A stretch of DNA of 31,458 nt, taken from IMG/VR virus record IMGVR_UViG_3300037605_000008, positions 1-31,458 of that record. The stretch is one strand, 5' to 3'. The stretch is from a virus. Lineage: Duplodnaviria; Caudoviricetes. The notes under the pieces were generated by a model that saw only the letters and a list, made by a program, of their open reading frames with translations, searched no databases and was not told the DNA's origin. Positions 114 through 31,458 of the stretch are shown piece by piece. Numbering within the stretch: the first letter of the stretch is position 1; every line of letters begins with the position of its first letter. The position numbers were made by a program, and so were the translations under genes.

Positions 114-370
114 TCATCTTTTTTGATTTTTGTTCCTGCCAATTCAAGTTTAATGTAAAAAATCAGATTTTCAGATTCATTCCTGAAAAATTCTGAATGT
201 CTAAAGGGTTCATTGTACCTTTTTTTTCTCAGGTACTGATTTAAACATTTACGGGTATTCCATCTACAGATTTTATCCAAATATGGTATAAATTCTGGAT
301 TTCTTTCAGTGTACTTGTTGAACTGCTTTTTTACAATTCTTTCAAAATTCAATAGTTCTTGTAGTATCAT
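107..370 (-). CDS. Hypothetical protein
   Basis: 87-aa ORF with a 4-bp overlap (ATGA) with the upstream polymerase-like gene; no motif recognised. Confidence 0.6.
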   Translation of the reverse strand: MILQELLNFERIVKKQFNKYTERNPEFIPYLDKICRWNTRKCLNQYLRKKRYNEPFRHSEFFRNESENLIFYIKLELAGTKIKKDEV

Positions 371-1944
371 ATTATATTTACCCCCATTCTTTCTAATTCA
401 GATGCAATAAAATCAAGCTTCTTATTTTCATCTGGATGATTCCTGTTAATATGATTTACAAAAATACCATTCCAGAAGATTGAATAATCTAACAGATTTA
501 TTTTTTTTAATCTGGTATTAACCGTTGCATAAGATCCAGTCAGATTATATACCCTATTTTTAATTAACTCTTCACTATGAAGATCAAAATCAATTGTTTT
601 AACTAATTCAGATATATCAGTGATTCCAATTCTTTTACCTTCATATTTCAAAGATTTCAAATCATTGTACTTTCTTTCAAATACATCTTGATCTACCATT
701 ATATCCTTGATAATTTTATCAATTTCTTGGTTTTCTATTTCACCAATCAAATCATATTCATCTACAGTTACTGTATATTCATCATTTACATTTAGTGTTG
801 CATTGATACCTTCCTTTGCAAAGGACTTTACTAAAGCTTCTGTAATGGTCTTAATTTCGCTTCTACCAGCATATAATGAATCGTGTACAGTCAGTACTTC
901 TTTCTGGTATTGAATTGAATTGAGTGCATTATATACTACTTGTGCTTCTTTATTCTGCATCAAGTGTGATAATACTTTATAATCATCTGATTTAATCTGA
1001 TTAATTACCCTTAATACTTGTGGGAATTTAGAACTGAATACTTCAGTTAGATAGGTATCATAATTACCTTTGGAAAAAATCAATTCAAACATCTTTTCCT
1101 TTAATTCCTTTCTATCTGTAATATCTGTATGATTCAATATAAATTCATAAAGTTTACCTGAAGTTGCCAAATCTTCAAATTTATCTGTAGATGGATCAAT
1201 TGATATATTTCTATTTTTCAGATAATCCTTTACAACAATAGATAAAAAAATCATTTGAGAATTCACAATATCAACAAAAGCTAGGTTTTCATTATTTAAT
1301 CTAACTTGATTCCTAATTGATTTAGGTAAATTTGAAAAATTGTTATATACCCTTTTACCTTTTTCACCTACTGTTTGAAATAGATTATTTTCTAACATAT
1401 CAAGAAATTTACTTTCATCTTCAGATAAATTATCTCTATCAATATGATCATATTGAAGGTTAGATAAAGATCTAAATAATCTGGATAGTATTTGAGTATC
1501 TTTTTCTACTCTTTTTGTCCTATCTTCAACTATTTTTTTTACAAATCTTGAATTTTTGAAGGTATAGAGTTTAGCACCCCTATTTTCAGTTAGAATATAT
1601 CCATTTGAAAAATTACCTATTGAAAACTTACTTACTAACTGAACTAATCCTATATCCTTTAGATTCTTTAGGATCTTTGGGTAATAATCACACCCTAATA
1701 ATTTATCTAATAATCTTGAATATAATCTACATACCTTTTCAGTCTTGTTGATTACTTCATTTGAATAGATTTTATCTATTATATAGAAATACTTTGGAAG
1801 GTGATTTTTAATGTGCTTTTCAGATACACCAATTTCTAATAATCTGTTGGTTAGATCTTCTGGTGATACAGTGGAAAAAAATTTTATTGTTTCATTATCT
1901 TTAGTCATTTGGGTAATTATTGTATTAAATATTATTCGTGTCAT
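367..1944 (-). CDS. Family A DNA polymerase / T7 RNA polymerase superfamily-like protein (TV-Pol-like), putative replication protein
   Basis: KRVYNNFSNLPKSIR, then motif A-like AFVDIVNSQ, motif B-like DRKELKEKMFELIF and motif C-like LTVHDSL; no exonuclease motifs seen. Confidence 0.7.
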   Translation of the reverse strand: MTRIIFNTIITQMTKDNETIKFFSTVSPEDLTNRLLEIGVSEKHIKNHLPKYFYIIDKIYSNEVINKTEKVCRLYSRLLDKLLGCDYYPKILKNLKDIGLVQLVSKFSIGNFSNGYILTENRGAKLYTFKNSRFVKKIVEDRTKRVEKDTQILSRLFRSLSNLQYDHIDRDNLSEDESKFLDMLENNLFQTVGEKGKRVYNNFSNLPKSIRNQVRLNNENLAFVDIVNSQMIFLSIVVKDYLKNRNISIDPSTDKFEDLATSGKLYEFILNHTDITDRKELKEKMFELIFSKGNYDTYLTEVFSSKFPQVLRVINQIKSDDYKVLSHLMQNKEAQVVYNALNSIQYQKEVLTVHDSLYAGRSEIKTITEALVKSFAKEGINATLNVNDEYTVTVDEYDLIGEIENQEIDKIIKDIMVDQDVFERKYNDLKSLKYEGKRIGITDISELVKTIDFDLHSEELIKNRVYNLTGSYATVNTRLKKINLLDYSIFWNGIFVNHINRNHPDENKKLDFIASELERMGVNII

Positions 1945-2761: not shown

Positions 2762-2843
2762 TATACCTTATGTACTCGGAGTTTTATAAATAAATAACAA
2801 TAATAAGAATAGAAGAATATATACCTTATGTACTCGGAGTTTT
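2762..2843. repeat. Two exact 24-bp direct repeats (candidate origin iterons or operator)
   Basis: TATACCTTATGTACTCGGAGTTTT at 2762-2785 and 2820-2843, inside a ~530-bp very AT-rich divergent intergenic region. Confidence 0.85.
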
Positions 2844-3539: not shown

Positions 3540-3757
3540 AAAAAATAACTAATATATTTGCAGGTACACTAGTTATCCTGTATTACTCAAGCTTAATCGG
3601 TGTGATATCAAGTATATATTACTTCTTGATTCCTTATATTACACTAATAGTAGAACCTAATGATTCATTATTGATATTGATTATATCTTTATTGATTTTT
3701 ACTATTTTACAGATCTTACTTTTTTATTATAACGTTAAAAAGAAATATGAACAATGA
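3536..3757 (+). CDS. Small membrane protein with two transmembrane helices
   Basis: Two hydrophobic stretches; overlaps both neighbouring genes. Confidence 0.6.
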   Translation: MKKITNIFAGTLVILYYSSLIGVISSIYYFLIPYITLIVEPNDSLLILIISLLIFTILQILLFYYNVKKKYEQ

Positions 3758-4238
3758 TTTAATAAATTTCATAAATGCACTGATAAACAAAAGATTACGA
3801 TATTTGAATAATATTAATAAAGATGATCTAACGGGTGATGTTATACTAGAAGTTCTTGAAAAGGGTATAGAGAAAGTAGAAGATAATCAATTAACAATTA
3901 ATGGTATAATTGCTTACCACATCAATAAAGCAATTAGGTATAACAAGAAAATATATAATTGGTCCGAAGATATTTATTTTGATATAAATCAAGAAAAAAA
4001 TGAATTATATGAATGTCAATATAATAAACTAGAAGAAATATTTAATTCATTTAAAAATGATAATCCAAAACTAAATCAAAAACATTTACATTTATTCGAG
4101 TTAATTAAAATAAATGGAATGAGTTACAAAGATATTGGTGATAATGTAAGTGATAGAAAAAGAGTTGAAAGAATATTTACCAAATTTAAAAATTACATCA
4201 AAGAAAAGAATATTAAACTAATTGATTTTTATGAATAA
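3747..4238 (+). CDS. Phage sigma70/ECF-like factor (putative late transcription activator)
   Basis: Region 2-like DDLTGDVILEVLEK and region 4-like LFELIKINGMSYKDIG helix-turn-helix; 163 aa. Confidence 0.55.
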   Translation: MNNDLINFINALINKRLRYLNNINKDDLTGDVILEVLEKGIEKVEDNQLTINGIIAYHINKAIRYNKKIYNWSEDIYFDINQEKNELYECQYNKLEEIFNSFKNDNPKLNQKHLHLFELIKINGMSYKDIGDNVSDRKRVERIFTKFKNYIKEKNIKLIDFYE

Positions 4239-4587
4239 TAGTTGGGGAAAAGATACTAAATTTTACAAATCAAAAGCTTGGAAAAATTTAAGAAATCAGA
4301 AAATAAATGATAATCCATTGTGTGAATTATGTTTACAACATTCCATTATAAATGAAGCTAAATATGTAGATCACATTTTAAATAGGCTAATATTTCCAGA
4401 TTTTGAATTGGAATATGATAATTTACAATCCTTATGCCCTACTTGCCATTCTCAAAAAACACAATTAGAAAGAACAATAAAAGATCCTGCATTGTATTTA
4501 AAATCAATGCAGGATGGTAAACTTCAATACATCTGTACACCTGAAGCGAAAAAAAGGTTATTTGATTTATTAACCAAATCCACCTGA
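4222..4587 (+). CDS. HNH endonuclease (terminase-associated, HK97 gp74-like)
   Basis: FYKSKAWKNLR, PLCELC, VDHI, NLQSLCPTCHSQKT; the start may be the ATG at 4231. Confidence 0.9.
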   Translation: MIFMNNSWGKDTKFYKSKAWKNLRNQKINDNPLCELCLQHSIINEAKYVDHILNRLIFPDFELEYDNLQSLCPTCHSQKTQLERTIKDPALYLKSMQDGKLQYICTPEAKKRLFDLLTKST

Positions 4588-5472
4588 ACCTGCACCACAA
4601 GATGTATAATTATTTATTTCAACAGTTCCATTACCGAAATTAGCTGAAGCTAGGAAAATATATTTAATATTATTGGCTGTATCTATCCAAGCATAATTAC
4701 CTGTTACTATATTAGTTGTACCTTGATTATCTGTATATAATGGTGCATTATTACCCAATGTAGATACATTACTAAATGCTGTAAATGCAGATCCAGTTAC
4801 ACTAGCACCACAAGATAATGAACCAATAGGATATATTAAATATCCATTAGGGAATGCAGGTGGTTGAAGTGTATTATCTGTAGCTGCAATAGTACCAGTT
4901 GGTGCAGGTTCGAAATAAGCATTTAAATCTGCAAATGGTGATGTACTCTGAACGAATACAGAATATGTAATATCTATTTCACTACCACCAGATGTAGATG
5001 GTGAAACATTATCCCAAGTTATTTCTATATATCTATTATCACTCTGACCAGTTGTCCAAGTAACATCTATTTGTTGCTCTGTACCCAAATCTAAATTAAT
5101 TGCAGCTTCAATTCTTAATGTTTGATTGAAGCCAACGAACCAATTAGGAATTAGAACCAAAGAAAAAGTAACATCATAATTAGAACCATTATCAATAAAG
5201 AATGCATCTATATTACTTATAGTAAATGTTCTTCTCGGATACGATCTAAATTGGCCTGTAGAATTTGGTAATGTTGTCCTTTTTGGGACAAACATATCTA
5301 ATTTTGCATTATTAACTATTGTTGCAAAGTTCTTAGTAACATTAGCAGGTGTACTAGATGTACCCTTTACTGCTGACTGTATTGAATTAAAATCACTTAT
5401 ATTATTTCCAGATGGATCTTGTGCATTCCCTTCGAAAATCTTAGCAAAACCAGTTGCAGGTATGAATCCCAT
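4570..5472 (-). CDS. Putative tail tip or receptor-binding accessory protein
   Basis: Last gene of the tail operon; G/S/T/N-rich, beta-strand-like composition. Confidence 0.55.
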   Translation of the reverse strand: MGFIPATGFAKIFEGNAQDPSGNNISDFNSIQSAVKGTSSTPANVTKNFATIVNNAKLDMFVPKRTTLPNSTGQFRSYPRRTFTISNIDAFFIDNGSNYDVTFSLVLIPNWFVGFNQTLRIEAAINLDLGTEQQIDVTWTTGQSDNRYIEITWDNVSPSTSGGSEIDITYSVFVQSTSPFADLNAYFEPAPTGTIAATDNTLQPPAFPNGYLIYPIGSLSCGASVTGSAFTAFSNVSTLGNNAPLYTDNQGTTNIVTGNYAWIDTANNIKYIFLASANFGNGTVEINNYTSCGAGSGGFG

Positions 5473-5501: not shown

Positions 5502-8500
5502 TTATTCAAATACAAAGTTAGTAGCAGTTACTACACCTTGATTATCAATTGTAAATACTCTATTACTAGCACTTGATAAATCACCAGATGTACCCACCGC
5601 AAAAAATGCATTACTAGAATTACCCCTACCCAAATATGTACTACCTGAAGTATTTGTTTCTAACCTAATTACAGCATTAGCATTTGTTCCTGTTCTCTTT
5701 CCATAATAAAGAATACCATCACTACCTTCAGCCCAAGAACGTGCAAATTTGACCTGTAATTCATCCATATTCAGCATATGCATCACTCTTCCATATGATC
5801 CCCAAGTACCATTGGTTCTATTCCTAATATATAATTCAGGCTGTGAACCTGTTGTACCAGTCATTAAAACACTTTCATATACTCCGCCTAATTGATGTCT
5901 GAAAGTTAATGTACTCCAATAATTAGCACCAGATGGTGCATTAGATGCCTGTAAACTTCCCGTATGAAACCTTGGTACAAATGCATCTGTTGTTATATTA
6001 TTCCAATTCGTAACAAAATTAGCTATTCTTGGATATCTGAAATCAATTACTGAAGTATCAAAATTAATAATAGGGTTACCACTCTGTCCATCGGCATTAG
6101 TAATAGTAATTCCTGTACCAGCAATTAATGATCTAGTACCTATAGTACCACCACTTCTATAAATTAAACCATTTGTTGCTAAAGAATGAAATGTCAATGC
6201 TTGGCCTGTTAATGATATAGTTCTATCAGATGTTAAATTACCACCACCAGCTAAACCAGTACCAGTATTAATTGATCTTGATGATAATGCATATCTACTA
6301 TCTAAATTAACTGAATTAATTCCTGTAATATGTCCATATGTATCAAGTGTTATATCTTGAATAACTGTACCATTTGAATTATTTACTGAACCTTGTGAAG
6401 AAGTATCTGAATGAGAAAATACAGTACCTGCTAATGATAATCCTGCACCTGCACTATATGTAGTATTAGTATCAGTTGCAGAAATAGTAATAGAATCAGA
6501 TGTAGTATTAGTTGTTATAGTAACATTAGTACCTGCTACTAAAGTTAAAGTATCATTGTTGTTATCTGCTACTACTGTACTTTGTCCAGATACAGCTATA
6601 TTTTTAAATATATTTTGGCTACTTCCCCTATCAGTATTAGAAAATACAGTACCAGCTAAAGATAATCCAGTACCTGCACTATATGTTGTGTTAGTATTTG
6701 TATCTGTTGATGATATAGTAATAGTATTAGTACTTGAATTGAATGATACTGAAGTTGCACCAGTACCTGCAAATCTAATACTATCATTATTTGAATCTGC
6801 TGAAAATTGTGTAGTACCAGCAGAATTAGCAATATTTTTAAATATATTTTGAGCTGATCCCCTATCAGTATTTGAGATTGTCAAATTACCAATAGATATT
6901 AATCTATTAATTCCAGATCCAGATAATGATATACCAGATCCACTTACAATTGAACCTTTACTAAATGCTGGTTCTGCACCTACATCTGAAGCTGTTAATG
7001 TTATTGAAGCTGTTAAATCACTTAATCCAGTTTGTGATAAAAATAATGTATTTCCTAAAAATGATATACCAGTTACAGATGCACCACCACCTATACCCCC
7101 TGTACCACCTTCACCATCAAAAATAAAGTTGGTTCCTGTGATATCTTCTGTAAATGTTTTTTCTCCTGTTATTGTCTGTGCAGTATCTAATGTTACATAG
7201 TTTGAATTTAAATAACCCAAATCAAGACCAATATTGATATTACCTGAAGATACTAATCTATTCGTTAATGTACCTGCACTTGTTATACCAGTACCTATAG
7301 TAATTGATCCTTTACTAAATGCAGATTCTGCACCAATATTAGCAGGTGTTAATACTCTAGTGGTAATACCTGTAACAGATCCAATTGTATTTGTGGTTAT
7401 ACTCGCTAATACAGTTGCACCAGTTAATGTAGGATTCAAAGCAGTATATGTAGGGTGTACATAGTTATTAGCATTTGCTTCTATATTATCCAATTTAAGC
7501 TTGTCTGAAGCACTCATAGCACCAGCTATAGTAGTAGATGCTAATGCAAGTGATAATACTTGATCAACTAAAGAAAGTCCATTAGTAGAAGTACCAAGTG
7601 TTACAGGTAAATGTAACTGTGATTCATCTGCTTTATTATTTAAAGCAGTTTGTAAACCAGTAATTTTATTTATTGATAAAGCAGGTATATCACCTTCAGT
7701 TAAAGTTATTGAAGCTGTTAAATCACTTAATCCTGTTTGACTTAGTGATAGTGTAGTACCAACAAATGATATACCAGTTACAGATGCTCCACCACCTATA
7801 CCACCAGATCCACCTTCACCATCAAATATAAAGTTAGTACCTGTAATATCCTTTGTAAATGTTTTTTCACCTGTAATGGTTTGATCTGTATCAATAGTAA
7901 CATAATTACCTGTAAGATATCCTAAATCTAATCCAATATTAATATTACCAGTATTAACCAATCTACCAGTTAATGTACCTGCACTTATTAAACCAGTACC
8001 TATAGTAATTGATCCTTTAGAAAATGCTGGTTCTGCACCTATGTTTGATGCTGTAATTGGTCTGGTAGTCCAATCCGTAATATGACCTAATGAATCTACT
8101 TGAAGATTAGAAATTACTACATTACCTGAAAGATTTGATTTAGATGTCCAAGATGATAATGGATGTACATAGTTATTTGCATTCGCTTCTATATTATCCA
8201 ATTTAAGCTTGTCTGAAGCACTCATTGCACCAGCTATACTTGTAGATGCTAATGCTAAAGAAAGTTCACCAGATACCAAAGAAAGACCGTTAGCAGGTGA
8301 ACCAATACTAATAGATGTACCAGCATTATCTAATGCAGTTTGTAAACCAGTAATTTTATTTATTGACAAAGCAGGTATATCACCTTCGGTTAATGTAAAT
8401 GTTGCAGATAAATCACTTAATCCTGTTTGACTTAGTGATAATGTTGTACCCAAAAAAGATATTGAAGTTACTGAAGATCCACTACCATCTATACCCCCTG

Positions 8501-8693
8501 TATCACCTTCACCATTGAAGATGAAATTATCTGAATATGTTACACCAGATACAGTTAAATCAGCATTCCACACTTCCCACTTTTCCACAAAATTACCAGT
8601 GGTAACAATACTGTTATTACCTGTATTATTAACATTAGAATCTTCAGTTGTTCTAAATTTAAATTTAGGTGTAATATTTATATTATAACTCAT
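5502..8693 (-). CDS. Tail fibre protein with internal repeats
   Basis: G/S/T-rich; repeated AGAMSASDKLKLDNIEANANNYVHP, INKITGLQTAL, TYSAGxGLSL and QTITGEKTF fibre motifs. Confidence 0.85.
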   Translation of the reverse strand: MSYNINITPKFKFRTTEDSNVNNTGNNSIVTTGNFVEKWEVWNADLTVSGVTYSDNFIFNGEGDTGGIDGSGSSVTSISFLGTTLSLSQTGLSDLSATFTLTEGDIPALSINKITGLQTALDNAGTSISIGSPANGLSLVSGELSLALASTSIAGAMSASDKLKLDNIEANANNYVHPLSSWTSKSNLSGNVVISNLQVDSLGHITDWTTRPITASNIGAEPAFSKGSITIGTGLISAGTLTGRLVNTGNINIGLDLGYLTGNYVTIDTDQTITGEKTFTKDITGTNFIFDGEGGSGGIGGGASVTGISFVGTTLSLSQTGLSDLTASITLTEGDIPALSINKITGLQTALNNKADESQLHLPVTLGTSTNGLSLVDQVLSLALASTTIAGAMSASDKLKLDNIEANANNYVHPTYTALNPTLTGATVLASITTNTIGSVTGITTRVLTPANIGAESAFSKGSITIGTGITSAGTLTNRLVSSGNINIGLDLGYLNSNYVTLDTAQTITGEKTFTEDITGTNFIFDGEGGTGGIGGGASVTGISFLGNTLFLSQTGLSDLTASITLTASDVGAEPAFSKGSIVSGSGISLSGSGINRLISIGNLTISNTDRGSAQNIFKNIANSAGTTQFSADSNNDSIRFAGTGATSVSFNSSTNTITISSTDTNTNTTYSAGTGLSLAGTVFSNTDRGSSQNIFKNIAVSGQSTVVADNNNDTLTLVAGTNVTITTNTTSDSITISATDTNTTYSAGAGLSLAGTVFSHSDTSSQGSVNNSNGTVIQDITLDTYGHITGINSVNLDSRYALSSRSINTGTGLAGGGNLTSDRTISLTGQALTFHSLATNGLIYRSGGTIGTRSLIAGTGITITNADGQSGNPIINFDTSVIDFRYPRIANFVTNWNNITTDAFVPRFHTGSLQASNAPSGANYWSTLTFRHQLGGVYESVLMTGTTGSQPELYIRNRTNGTWGSYGRVMHMLNMDELQVKFARSWAEGSDGILYYGKRTGTNANAVIRLETNTSGSTYLGRGNSSNAFFAVGTSGDLSSASNRVFTIDNQGVVTATNFVFE
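6880..8530 (-). repeat. ~700-bp module repeated about 2.3 times in the tail fibre gene
   Basis: NFIFxGEG starts near 8530, 7835 and 7130; near-identical DNA at ~7458-7517 and ~8166-8225. Confidence 0.85.
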
Positions 8694-28873: not shown

Positions 28874-29360
28874 TTTTCTTTTTCTTTGGTTTAAGTATAA
28901 TTATCAGTAATACCACAAGGATTAAAAAAAATCCTACCTTGAATACATCCCCAAATACTACAGATAAAACTGTTTCAATTACATTATATGCTTCTTGATC
29001 CCTTTCCTTTTTTACAGTATCATAATATGATTCATTGGTGAATTCAGAAATTTTAATTGCTGTAGTATCATTTACTTGCTGTTTTTCGCTCTTATTCCTT
29101 TTAATGGTAGTAGATGTTGTTACAGGTGCTAAAATAACTGTATCGGCCTTATTTGGGCTTGATATGATGTGTGGTATGAATTCAACCTTATCAACTTCTA
29201 TTGAATAATTATCAAAATACGAATAATCCAGATTAAAGTTATTAAATGATGTTGAATCTGATTTTGATGTTGAATCTTCTTGTGTGTTGGTATCTAGTAT
29301 TAACTTATTTGATTTACACCCTACCAAGAATAAGAGTGATAATATTAGGAAATTTTTCAT
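28845..29360 (-). CDS. Lipoprotein with C-terminal transmembrane helix (unimolecular spanin-like)
   Basis: Lipobox LVGC, S/T-rich linker, then VGFFLILVVLLIIIL followed by KPKKKK. Confidence 0.65.
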   Translation of the reverse strand: MKNFLILSLLFLVGCKSNKLILDTNTQEDSTSKSDSTSFNNFNLDYSYFDNYSIEVDKVEFIPHIISSPNKADTVILAPVTTSTTIKRNKSEKQQVNDTTAIKISEFTNESYYDTVKKERDQEAYNVIETVLSVVFGDVFKVGFFLILVVLLIIILKPKKKKNDISENKNK

Positions 29361-29692
29361 TTGTCAAAAAATATTTTATTAAAAGTTTGTTTACTCATAA
29401 TTACATATTCTCCTTTATACGTGACTTTCGAATAGATAATATTTAATTCATCTGGATTAAATGAATCCATATCTTTAATAATCTGATTGTAATTAATATT
29501 GTTCTTGGTATTCTTAGCTTGGATATTTAATTTTTGTTTCTTGTACTCAATATTTAAATCAACCTTTTGATGATCTGCTAATTTATTGATGAATCTATTG
29601 GTATATACTTTAACACCTGTTAATTCAGTAAATTCTTTTGCTAATTGCCTTTCATAGCTGTTACCCTTATTTCTACTATTTATTTTACCCAT
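29357..29692 (-). CDS. Holliday junction resolvase-like PD-(D/E)xK nuclease
   Basis: MGKINSRNKGNSYERQLAKEF...KVDL...NIQAK; start reassigned to 29692 because the longer ORF runs through the repeat array. Confidence 0.8.
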   Translation of the reverse strand: MGKINSRNKGNSYERQLAKEFTELTGVKVYTNRFINKLADHQKVDLNIEYKKQKLNIQAKNTKNNINYNQIIKDMDSFNPDELNIIYSKVTYKGEYVIMSKQTFNKIFFDK

Positions 29693-29709: not shown

Positions 29710-29810
29710 GTTGTGTATACCTTTCATTTGATGAATATATACAACATATAATCAAAATAAATTTCTCATTTGTGTTGTGTATACCTTTCATTTGATGTTT
29801 ATATATAAAC
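29710..29810 (-). CRISPR. CRISPR-like mini-array (repeat, 28-nt spacer, repeat)
   Basis: 36-nt GTTGTATATATTCATCAAATGAAAGGTATACACAAC (29745 to 29710) and 37-nt GTTTATATATAAACATCAAATGAAAGGTATACACAAC (29810 to 29774) share an identical 3' 24 nt and GTT...AAC ends; spacer at 29746-29773. Confidence 0.78.
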
Positions 29811-29932
29811 ATCACAATATATTATCTATTGTATATCAATTAAATAAAGGTACTTTCCGAGTGGATAAATCCCTCAGATTAAGGCTGCACAACCAGCCTA
29901 ATTGTAATAAATACAATCCTATTTTTTAAATT
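29811..29932 (-). ncRNA. tracrRNA-like structured RNA (type V-F/Cas12f-like architecture)
   Basis: Hairpin AGGCUG-GUUGUG-CAGCCU whose loop is complementary to the repeat 3' end CACAAC; stem CUGAG-GGA...UCC-A-CUCGG; anti-repeat UACCUUUAUUUAAUUGAUAUACAAU. Confidence 0.68.
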
Positions 29933-29937
29933 CAATA

Positions 29938-29968
29938 CAAAAGTATATACAAGATAAATAGAAAACAA
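29938..29968 (-). promoter_or_regulatory. Bacteroidota primary-sigma promoter driving the tracr-like RNA and array
   Basis: TTG-N20-TACTTTTG on the minus strand. Confidence 0.6.
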
Positions 29969-30003: not shown

Positions 30004-31332
30004 TTATATATCCAATGATATATTTTCATATTCATCATTTACATAATCAATACCCAAATACTTTTGTGTGGTGTTGATATTGGAATGTCCTAAACAATTT
30101 TTTACAAATAGAATGTCTTTATTTTGATTATATATCAAATATGCAAATGTTTTTCTTGCAGTGTGTGATGTTACTACTTCAGATAGTTTAAATAATTTAA
30201 CTTTTCTATCCTTATAGATTTCTATTTTTCTGATTGAATTACCATATATATTATCTAATGCATTTGATACTGCACTTTGTTCTTTCTTTATATGTGTTAT
30301 TAAATCATTCTGATTAGTTAAATCTGGAAAATCCCAATTCAATTCTGTAGCTAATTCAAACAGATAATTTTTAATATAGGGTATTGTAACTTTTTTATTG
30401 TTCTTATACCCTATATATGAAAATCCATTGAATTTAGAATGTACATCTTTATTTGCACTTCTTTCAGCAATATTAACCAGTTTAGATTTATTGATATTAT
30501 GTTTATTCATTTCTCTAATTCTCATACCTGAAAAACATCTAAACAAAAAGTAATTGATAAATTTAATATCCTGCTTATCTGGTCTTGCTACCTTTTGCAT
30601 TTCTTCAGTAGGATCATATACATATTTATATAATGAAGATAATTCATCTTTGGTTAGATAGATGATTTCTTTTATCTCATTTTTATAATTATTGTCCTTA
30701 TTTTTAAAATATGGTATATTTTTATTATTGATATCATTATAATGTTTGATTGAAGTATTTAGACTATCAAAAAATGTTTTGATTGATGAATCTTTATTTG
30801 ATTCTACCTTTCTGCAAAATATTAATATGGCCTGTTGTATGTTATATATATTTTCTTCTAAATCTTGAATGTTAATGTGTTTATTATAGTATTTTTCAAA
30901 TCTTTCAAGTTTCTTGATATAGTACTCATAATTTTTAGAAGTATTATTTGATAAACCTAAATCAATTGTATTCTGATATTTCAGCTTAAGTAAATTAATC
31001 AATTTATCAGATTCAATTATAATATCTTTTGTTGCTATACCCTTTTTTGCTGCACTTACTACAATATCAATATCTTTATCATTTACATCAGATTTTTCTT
31101 CAATCTTGGTTAATTCATCTTCAATAAATGCTAATGTTTTATTGTACTTACTGTAGGATTTATTGGATCTTTTGATTCTTTGTTGTGATTGATCCCATTC
31201 ATCAATGGTACAGGAAATACCCAATCCTTTCACCTTGTACTTTTTCAAAGATTTCAGGTAATAACGGAGTACAATAGAATTTGAATCTTTAGAACCTTTC
31301 TTTTTGTCCTTAATGAAGAAAATAGTTTTCAT
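30004..31332 (-). CDS. int: Tyrosine recombinase / phage integrase
   Basis: FSGMRIRE (R), SHTARKTF (HxxR), LGHS (H), TQKY (Y); N-terminal arm-binding-like domain LGISCTIDEWD. Confidence 0.95.
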   Translation of the reverse strand: MKTIFFIKDKKKGSKDSNSIVLRYYLKSLKKYKVKGLGISCTIDEWDQSQQRIKRSNKSYSKYNKTLAFIEDELTKIEEKSDVNDKDIDIVVSAAKKGIATKDIIIESDKLINLLKLKYQNTIDLGLSNNTSKNYEYYIKKLERFEKYYNKHINIQDLEENIYNIQQAILIFCRKVESNKDSSIKTFFDSLNTSIKHYNDINNKNIPYFKNKDNNYKNEIKEIIYLTKDELSSLYKYVYDPTEEMQKVARPDKQDIKFINYFLFRCFSGMRIREMNKHNINKSKLVNIAERSANKDVHSKFNGFSYIGYKNNKKVTIPYIKNYLFELATELNWDFPDLTNQNDLITHIKKEQSAVSNALDNIYGNSIRKIEIYKDRKVKLFKLSEVVTSHTARKTFAYLIYNQNKDILFVKNCLGHSNINTTQKYLGIDYVNDEYENISLDI

Positions 31333-31386: not shown

Positions 31387-31458
31387 TGCTATTGAAAACT
31401 CTGAAAAAGGTGCTTTAAAACTGCTTTAAATGATATTTCTTGATATTTATACTTTGGA

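What the first reader, a model, noticed from the sequence alone, without database searches (positions are those of the whole stretch)
29710..29968. Phage-encoded Cas12f-like tracrRNA plus mini-array, with no cas gene
Seen on the minus strand, in order: a TTG-N20-TACTTTTG promoter; a hairpin (29901-29917); the hairpin AGGCUG-GUUGUG-CAGCCU (29882-29899), whose loop is exactly complementary to the last 6 nt of both repeats; a second stem (29857-29877); an anti-repeat (29828-29852) pairing with GUUGUAUAU and AAAU(G)AAAGGUA of the repeat; then repeat, 28-nt spacer, repeat. Established knowledge, recalled from memory and needing verification: the Un1Cas12f1/Cas14a1 tracrRNA has the same order, with GGCUG-loop-CAGCCU pairing to the repeat 3' end, then a stem and a UUCAUUU anti-repeat, and its repeat ends AAUGAAGGAAUGCAAC. 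Inference: tracr and crRNA sit on one transcript as a natural single guide. It would be loaded onto an effector supplied in trans, such as a host Cas12f/TnpB-like protein or a nuclease-dead Bacteroidota Cas12f. Possible roles are inter-phage competition, gene regulation, or decoy (RNA anti-CRISPR).
Basis: partly seen in the sequence, partly recalled or inferred. Interest (0 to 1): 0.92.

Follow-up and report, generated by a model that had tools for sequence, protein, structure and literature searches.

The report
Phage carries its rival's Cas12f guide
A small temperate phage with no CRISPR nuclease gene carries a near-copy of the guide-RNA scaffold of a jumbo phage's Cas12f system, two of whose spacers match this small phage, and it likely uses the RNA as a decoy to blunt the rival's nuclease.

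Summary
In detail: it is a type V-F (Cas12f) tracrRNA plus a one-spacer array in a 31.5-kb temperate phage with no cas gene found. The tracrRNA is 114/125 nt identical to the one directly behind an intact Cas12f gene in a 266-kb jumbo phage (G001), and still begins with that gene's last five codons. Loop and anti-repeat covary with the repeat across related systems, and published Al3Cas12f/RhCas12f guides share the layout. New here: 2 of 8 spacers in the jumbo phage's arrays match this phage at 27/30 nt, all mismatches synonymous. So the cassette's closest source is a rival phage that targets this lineage, not a known host system. The window's own spacer has no convincing target, including in G001. 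Best reading: a captured decoy RNA that would tie up the rival's Cas12f (about 0.35). Rivals: guide against an unsampled third element (0.25), recent neutral capture (0.2), host or missing partner gene (0.1). Expression, binding and inhibition are untested. The scan earlier found orphan Cas12f cassettes on other DNA (e1-7431083).

The parts
29938..29968 (-). Predicted Bacteroidota-type promoter (TTG-N20-TAnnTTTG; consensus recalled)
   Evidence: One of 5 such sites in the window, one of 2 intergenic; a related provirus without the cassette has a TAnnTTTG site at the same post-integrase position, so the promoter position is probably ancestral
29919..29933 (-). Last five codons of a cas12f gene (E-F-K-K-stop), where likeness to the jumbo-phage locus begins
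   Evidence: Identical to the end of G001 cas12f; likeness stops 14 nt into the gene; EFxK is the consensus C-terminus of alignment A1
29901..29917 (-). tracrRNA 5' hairpin
   Evidence: Differs from G001 by one compensatory pair (C-G to U-A) and four loop changes
29882..29899 (-). tracrRNA stem whose 6-nt loop is complementary to the repeat 3' end (predicted pseudoknot)
   Evidence: Loop/repeat covariation over 14 distinct loops; same layout in Al3Cas12f and RhCas12f guides
29857..29877 (-). tracrRNA second stem (UGAG...CUCG)
   Evidence: Conserved arms in alignment A2; shared motifs with RhCas12f guide
29828..29856 (-). Anti-repeat (core TACCTTT at 29846-29852)
   Evidence: Cognate versus non-cognate duplex test on 8 systems
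29774..29810 (-). Repeat 1, 37 nt; 3' half intact, 5' half forms its own hairpin
29746..29773 (-). Spacer, 28 nt; no convincing target found
29710..29745 (-). Repeat 2, 36 nt, followed after 17 nt and without a terminator by the resolvase start codon
4876..4905 (+). Site matched by spacer 3 (index 2) of the jumbo-phage Cas12f array, 27/30, 5' flank ATT
   Evidence: three synonymous third-position mismatches
4396..4425 (-). Site in the HNH gene matched by spacer 5 (index 4) of the jumbo-phage array, 27/30, 5' flank TTG
   Evidence: three synonymous third-position mismatches
30004..31332 (-). Tyrosine integrase, upstream neighbour
   Evidence: closest named relatives are from Algoriphagus, 52-53% identical
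29357..29683 (-). RusA-like/PD-(D/E)XK resolvase, downstream neighbour and first gene of the minus-strand run to the structural genes

Best explanation
This is a Cas12f tracrRNA plus repeat-spacer-repeat in a cas-less temperate phage, nearly identical to the guide module of a jumbo phage whose array holds spacers matching this phage; it was likely captured from that lineage and likely works as a decoy RNA that would load the rival's Cas12f with a harmless guide. Shown: identity, layout, covariation, the five-codon cas12f remnant, the two matching spacers, no target for the window's spacer in G001. Inferred: the two phages share a host; the module moved from a G001-like jumbo phage into the slot behind the integrase; the promoter there is predicted to transcribe it in lysogens or early in infection; the RNA would fold as a pre-joined guide, compete for Cas12f dimers and spare the temperate genome from cutting during co-infection.
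For: tracrRNA 114/125 nt identical to the copy directly behind G001 cas12f, a 463-aa protein with invariant D265/E363/D448 and a cysteine zinc finger whose best solved relative is Cas12f-MG119-28/Al3Cas12f (E 4e-59). 2 of 8 inter-repeat spacers of G001 match the window at 27/30 (shuffle maxima 21 and 22 in 100), all 6 mismatches synonymous. Likeness starts in the last five codons of cas12f, which gives the direction of transfer. Two related proviruses lack the cassette (0 of 2). 9 of 11 differences from G001 are unpaired and the other 2 are one compensatory pair (Fisher p 0.009). The window's spacer does not match G001 (best 21/28; seed with PAM 8 nt, below the shuffle median). Precedent for guide-mimic inhibitors, for Cas9 only: 10.64898/2026.06.01.729453, 10.64898/2026.06.03.729762.
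Against: No expression, binding or inhibition data. The structural constraint cannot be assigned to the window's branch: a recent capture from a G001 relative would give the same pattern. An intact repeat-spacer-repeat is the usual form of a targeting mini-array, and a failed target search is weak because databases are incomplete. An extra tracrRNA could as well help process the jumbo phage's own repeats. The matched sites carry 3 mismatches each, so G001 targets a relative rather than this exact genome. The spacer does not match the region upstream of G001 cas12f, unlike Cas9 vsgRNAs, and the neighbours are integrase and resolvase, not known anti-CRISPR genes. Only one carrier genome is known; the host genome was not available; CheckV completeness is 42%.
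Confidence: 0.35

Rival explanations
1. Targeting mini-array: the RNA is a working guide that borrows Cas12f (from the jumbo phage or a host element) to cut a third element, such as a related temperate phage, or host DNA to abort the jumbo infection.
For: Intact repeat-spacer-repeat and intact scaffold. Most viral mini-array spacers target related viruses (PMC11656645). The first 15 nt of the spacer match the window's own resolvase-lipoprotein junction at 29364 (minus) at 14/15 behind TTG (10 of 1000 shuffles reach this), as expected if it came from the same junction in a relative.
Against: No target: 11 IMG/VR loci share the first 19 nt but reach only 20-22/28 and none has a T-rich flank; no significant full-length match among INPHARED phages or plasmids; 0 of 401 Bacteroidota genomes at up to 3 mismatches; best 21/28 in two related proviruses. 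The effector would be present only during jumbo infection unless the host has one.
Confidence: 0.25
2. Neutral capture: a recent recombination during co-infection dropped the module behind an existing promoter, and it has no function yet or is decaying.
For: Single carrier (searches found no other cas-less record with this module); first repeat degenerate in its 5' half and 37 nt; spacer 1-2 nt shorter than the G001 norm; promoter position ancestral; G001 itself spreads extra copies (4 in all).
Against: The cut is clean: whole scaffold kept, gene lost but for five codons, placed just behind the promoter; none of 71 paired positions broken; G001's own second array also has a degenerate first repeat. 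Searches may leave out near-identical genomes, so single-carrier status is weak.
Confidence: 0.2
3. Detached array of a Cas12f or dCas12f gene that lies in the host chromosome or in a missing part of this phage.
For: CheckV 42%. G001 and G002 carry cas-less tracr-array copies away from their own gene. Host dCas12f loci use the same scaffold family. An earlier scan note describes such a split layout (e1-3669339, unchecked).
Against: The window covers the whole gene order of a 28.9-kb provirus from replication gene to integrase. Of 401 Bacteroidota genomes, 12 hit the profile at 1e-30; only 1 is a full-length member of this clade and 4 more carry the truncated 368-372-aa form; their scaffolds are far less alike than G001's (bits 9.5-26 against 84-86).
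Confidence: 0.1
4. Cis-acting leader or self-targeting switch: Cas12f binding or processing of this 5' leader, or weak binding at the phage's own sites, would change expression of the resolvase-to-terminase operon when a jumbo phage invades.
For: No terminator between array and resolvase; repeat 2 ends 17 nt before the start codon; two compact G001 scaffolds also sit between a promoter and a gene. Two partial self-matches: 29364 (14/15, TTG) and a 16-nt block in the integrase (30118-30133).
Against: Each self-match arises in about 1% of controls (41 of 5000 shuffles, 17 of 1471 foreign AT-rich 28-mers; 10 of 1000) and they were found after looking; arrays abut downstream genes in many of these compact phage loci.
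Confidence: 0.1

Closest known systems
Type V-F CRISPR-Cas12f, Al3Cas12f / Cas12f-MG119 and RhCas12f group (PMC13186708; PDB 9NZO, 9NZP)
   Same: Stem with 6-nt loop complementary to the repeat end, UGAG...CUC stem, anti-repeat, then repeat and 3' guide; the sister locus encodes a homologous nuclease.
   Different: No cas12f gene in cis; one spacer; shorter second stem; sits in a temperate phage.
Viral single-guide mimics of Cas9: vsgRNA (10.64898/2026.06.01.729453) and rAcrIIA1 (10.64898/2026.06.03.729762)
   Same: Phage-encoded tracr plus crRNA parts on one predicted transcript, no cas gene, proposed to sequester the effector.
   Different: Those act on host Cas9, are shown experimentally, lie by acr genes and (vsgRNA) target the cas9 promoter; this is type V-F, its nearest effector is another phage's, and no cas-promoter match was found.
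Viral CRISPR mini-arrays and Racrs (PMC11656645; PMC10651486)
   Same: One-spacer array in a virus without cas genes.
   Different: Known ones copy host repeats; this one brings its own tracrRNA and copies a rival phage's system; no target in a related virus was found.
dCas12f-sigmaE guide RNAs of Bacteroidota (PMC13472631)
   Same: Related scaffold (model hits at 3 of 7 such host loci at E < 0.001).
   Different: Those are compact single guides beside rpoE-dcas12f; the window's nearest relative accompanies a nuclease with intact RuvC motifs.

Membership tests
Type V-F tracrRNA/crRNA | tracrRNA stem-loop pairs with the repeat 3' end | tested here: met
   6/6 in the window; 68.5 of 84 over 14 distinct loops against 48.6 +/- 3.0, 0 of 20000 permutations
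Type V-F tracrRNA/crRNA | Anti-repeat duplex with the repeat | tested here: met
   Cognate sum -67.4 against -39.5 +/- 6.8 kcal/mol, 3 of 20000, 8 systems
Type V-F tracrRNA/crRNA | Homologues lie beside a Cas12f-family gene | tested here: met
   6 of 7 viral records and 3 of 17 genome loci from the motif scans (the other 14 are chance matches without repeats)
Type V-F CRISPR-Cas system (complete) | cas12f gene in the same element | tested here: not met
   record may be incomplete
Type V-F tracrRNA/crRNA | T-rich 5' PAM at targets | tested here: inconclusive
   Two G001 protospacer-like sites have ATT and TTG; no target for the window's spacer
Type V-F tracrRNA/crRNA | RNA is expressed, processed and bound by Cas12f | not testable with these tools
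   No RNA or binding data were available
Viral CRISPR mini-array | One or two spacers in a virus lacking cas genes | tested here: met
Viral CRISPR mini-array | Repeat identical to a host CRISPR repeat | tested here: inconclusive
   Closest repeat is a jumbo phage's; the host genome was not available
Viral CRISPR mini-array | Spacer targets a related virus | tested here: inconclusive
   None found; collections incomplete
RNA anti-CRISPR (Racr / vsgRNA / rAcrIIA1) | Phage-encoded mimic of the guide RNA without the effector | tested here: met
RNA anti-CRISPR (vsgRNA) | Guide matches the cas gene promoter | tested here: not met
   No seed over 7 nt in 2.2 kb around G001 cas12f outside the repeats
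RNA anti-CRISPR (Racr / vsgRNA / rAcrIIA1) | Inhibits interference by the cognate effector | not testable with these tools
   Needs an interference assay
dCas12f-sigmaE system | Beside a RuvC-truncated dCas12f and rpoE | tested here: not met
   No such gene in the window; nearest sister protein has full RuvC and zinc finger

The most novel reading that the evidence does not exclude
A temperate phage has taken the whole guide module of a jumbo phage's Cas12f system that targets it, and expresses it as an RNA anti-CRISPR against another virus's CRISPR: the first RNA inhibitor of a type V-F nuclease and a counter-weapon in a phage-versus-phage CRISPR conflict.
Probability: 0.35. Interest if true: 0.88.

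Novelty: new variant of a known kind. Interest (0 to 1): 0.72.

Why it matters
Jumbo phages are known to carry small CRISPR systems, but how their viral targets answer is open. Here attacker (intact Cas12f, tracrRNA, spacers), target sites and a candidate counter-measure are all in hand as sequence, so the conflict can be rebuilt on plasmids. If the decoy reading holds, RNA anti-CRISPRs extend to Cas12f and to virus-virus conflict, and the RNA would be a natural off-switch and a compact single-guide template for a genome-editing nuclease family. The G001 nuclease with its tracrRNA and T-rich flanks is also an uncharacterised Al3Cas12f relative.

Tried and rejected
Rfam: no match to the element. 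Cas13b or Cas9 readings (repeat likeness recalled from memory): rejected, since homologues lie behind cas12f-family genes in the minus-strand sense. L001 shares the repeat's last 20 nt but has a different TnpB-family gene and no such tracrRNA: not used. Spacer target searches all negative; a 24/26 plasmid hit in a Bacteroidota genome (H61, E 0.06) includes repeat bases and was rejected. Self-matches at about 1% chance each kept only as a rival. Sequence after repeat 2 as a guide against G001: 12-nt seed, within the shuffle range. No RNA holder listed. Four pond-metagenome runs laid on the window end showed no differing letters; two runs that hold the phage showed no contig on G001 cas12f at 80% likeness and no second tracrRNA copy, a gap that proves nothing. 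Host genome not found among 401 Bacteroidota. First covariation runs had faulty automatic picking (2 of 20000; 466 of 20000, anti-repeat mis-picked in 4 of 8) and were redone. The atlas search on ORF 367-1944 pointed to a polymerase-like protein, not a Cas. PAM refinement from G001 spacers in INPHARED failed.

Full report
Observation. The window is a whole 31,458-nt virus record with integrase, terminase, portal, capsid and tape-measure genes. The closest named relatives of the integrase are from Algoriphagus (52-53% identical), so a Bacteroidota host is inferred. No cas or tnpB gene was found (0 of 35 ORFs; six-frame profile). CheckV gives 42% completeness, but the window is colinear from replication gene to integrase with a 28.9-kb provirus that CheckV rates 45%, so it is probably near complete.

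What it is. An exact 16-nt scan for the hairpin returned 26 viral loci; those from 3 records continue into anti-repeat and repeats, the rest are chance. In G001, a 265,845-nt record with terminal repeats and a terminase, the module lies directly behind a 463-aa gene whose best solved relatives are PDB 9NZO/9NZR (E 4e-59), named Cas12f-MG119-28 in 10.1101/2025.08.14.670346 (passages). D265, E363, D448 and four cysteines are invariant in 28 homologues; reading them as RuvC and zinc-finger residues rests on my knowledge of the family. The window's tracrRNA equals this copy at 114 of 125 nt. A looser motif found the module in 7 viral records (12 loci) and 3 of 17 genome loci; 6 of the 7 and all 3 have a Cas12f or truncated Cas12f gene upstream. 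Published guides (PMC13186708, supplementary file 11 part 7) show the same order: Al3Cas12f has loop GUUGGA and a repeat ending UCCAAC; RhCas12f shares GGCUG, CAGCC, CUGAGGG and CACUCGGAAAG with the window.

Covariation. A hairpin rule that does not ask for loop-repeat pairing gave 34 rows. I kept 24 (dropping duplicate copies, one reverse-strand row, rows with 7-8-nt loops and a few others), which hold 14 distinct loops: pairing score 68.5 of 84 against 48.6 +/- 3.0, 0 of 20000 permutations (a first run with faulty repeat ends gave 2 of 20000). Anti-repeats of 8 systems pair better with their own repeat (-67.4 against -39.5 +/- 6.8; 3 of 20000; 466 of 20000 with four mis-picked anti-repeats). 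The systems are related and the Bacteroidota loops were partly fixed by the scan pattern, so these are not clean probabilities.

The link between the two phages. G001 has two arrays with 8 inter-repeat spacers. Two match the window at 27 of 30 nt (4876-4905 plus; 4396-4425 minus), where 100 shuffles of each reach at most 21 and 22; the other six and the two trailers are within their shuffle range. All six mismatches are synonymous third positions in window ORFs, so the spacers came from a close relative of this phage. The 5' flanks are ATT and TTG, in line with the T-rich PAMs reported for this group. G001 has no cas1. Likeness between window and G001 starts in the last five codons of cas12f, which G001's second copy lacks: the module came from a gene-adjacent copy. 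Two related proviruses lack it, and one has a TAnnTTTG site at the same place behind the integrase (consensus recalled, PMC13472631 names only the -7 and -33 positions). I infer a shared host and a capture into an existing promoter slot.

Selection. Of 11 differences from G001, 9 are at unpaired positions and 2 form one compensatory pair (71 of 125 positions marked paired by me; Fisher p 0.009). This shows constraint on the RNA but not on which branch: a recent capture from a G001 relative would look the same.

The spacer. No convincing target in G001 (best 21/28), IMG/VR (11 loci share 19 nt, at most 22/28), INPHARED, plasmids, 401 Bacteroidota genomes or two related proviruses. Two partial self-matches each occur in about 1% of controls. 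No match upstream of G001 cas12f.

Mechanism. The promoter is predicted to give a transcript starting near 29933. Cut 20 nt into the spacer it folds with anti-repeat on repeat 1 (p 0.85); at full length repeat 2 competes (0.56 against 0.28). A lysogen or co-infecting phage that already holds this RNA would offer the jumbo phage's Cas12f a ready scaffold with a guide that cuts neither phage, diluting the guides against the temperate genome. I put this at 0.35, a working guide against an unsampled element at 0.25, neutral capture at 0.2, a host or missing partner gene at 0.1 (1 full-length and 4 truncated clade members among 401 Bacteroidota genomes; far weaker scaffold likeness), and a cis switch at 0.1. 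The identification as a Cas12f guide module is about 0.95 and its origin from a G001-like phage about 0.8.

What is known. Viral mini-arrays that borrow host systems and Racrs are established (PMC11656645, passages; PMC10651486, passages, tested subtypes I-C, I-E, I-F, V-A; 10.1101/2023.03.03.530964, passages). Phage single-guide mimics that sequester Cas9 are described in two 2026 preprints (abstract and passages; passages; their supplements are closed and could list type V cases). Orphan arrays in jumbo phages are noted in PMC12607003 (passages). Eight full-text searches showed no paper on a cas-less phage Cas12f tracrRNA-array, on an RNA inhibitor of Cas12f, or on a phage carrying the guide module of a phage that targets it; the library lacks most subscription papers. 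Earlier scan notes describe orphan or detached Cas12f cassettes on other DNA, none with the targeting link; no note exists for this sequence or genome.

Verdict. Real, a new variant of a known kind. The surprising and testable part is the victim-holds-attacker's-guide relation; the function is inferred. Interest 0.72.

Noticed in passing
G001:C1:30798-30847 and 32722-32791 (L042:4760-4865, 6710-6810, minus): Two compact single-guide-like copies of the scaffold (short hairpin in place of anti-repeat plus repeat, ending in C-A-C/T-A-A-C), each behind a TAnnTTTG site and in front of a gene, 200 kb from cas12f.
   Followed up: partly
G001:C1:231016-231241 (L041:5070-5241, minus): Second tracrRNA with a three-repeat array 2 kb downstream of the cas12f locus, without its own gene.
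   Followed up: partly
G002 (L043:1412-1600 plus; L044:5010-5125 and 6790-7108, 7385-8509 minus): Provirus with a RuvC-truncated 374-aa Cas12f, an array and two further detached tracrRNA copies; a 16-nt stretch upstream of two tracrRNAs recurs inside the third copy's array.
   Followed up: partly
L126, L136, L063, L199: Further nuclease-intact Cas12f loci of this clade with tracrRNA and arrays in large phages and one Bacteroidota genome; uncharacterised editing candidates.
   Followed up: partly
L049, L062, L069, L077, L082, L084: Cas12f-type tracrRNA loops pair with repeats that look like class 1 (I-B, I-C, I-E) repeats (likeness recalled), suggesting repeated adoption of foreign arrays.
   Followed up: no
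window 2762-2842: Two copies of a 24-nt direct repeat about 57 nt apart in the AT-rich intergenic region before ORF 3003; possible origin or operator.
   Followed up: no
window 367-1944 (minus): 525-aa protein without Pfam or PHROG hit; atlas neighbours include a family-A polymerase palm-like cluster (TM 0.65); 50% identical to a G408 protein.
   Followed up: partly
window 3747-4238 (plus): 163-aa protein that looks sigma-factor-like by eye; no Pfam, PHROG or NCBIfam hit.
   Followed up: partly
L001:1746-3152: 35-kb phage with an IS200-type TnpB-family gene followed directly by three repeats that share the last 20 nt of the window's repeat.
   Followed up: partly
window 31429-31458: In run X2 the right end forks into two contigs of half depth, as at a prophage boundary.
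   Followed up: no
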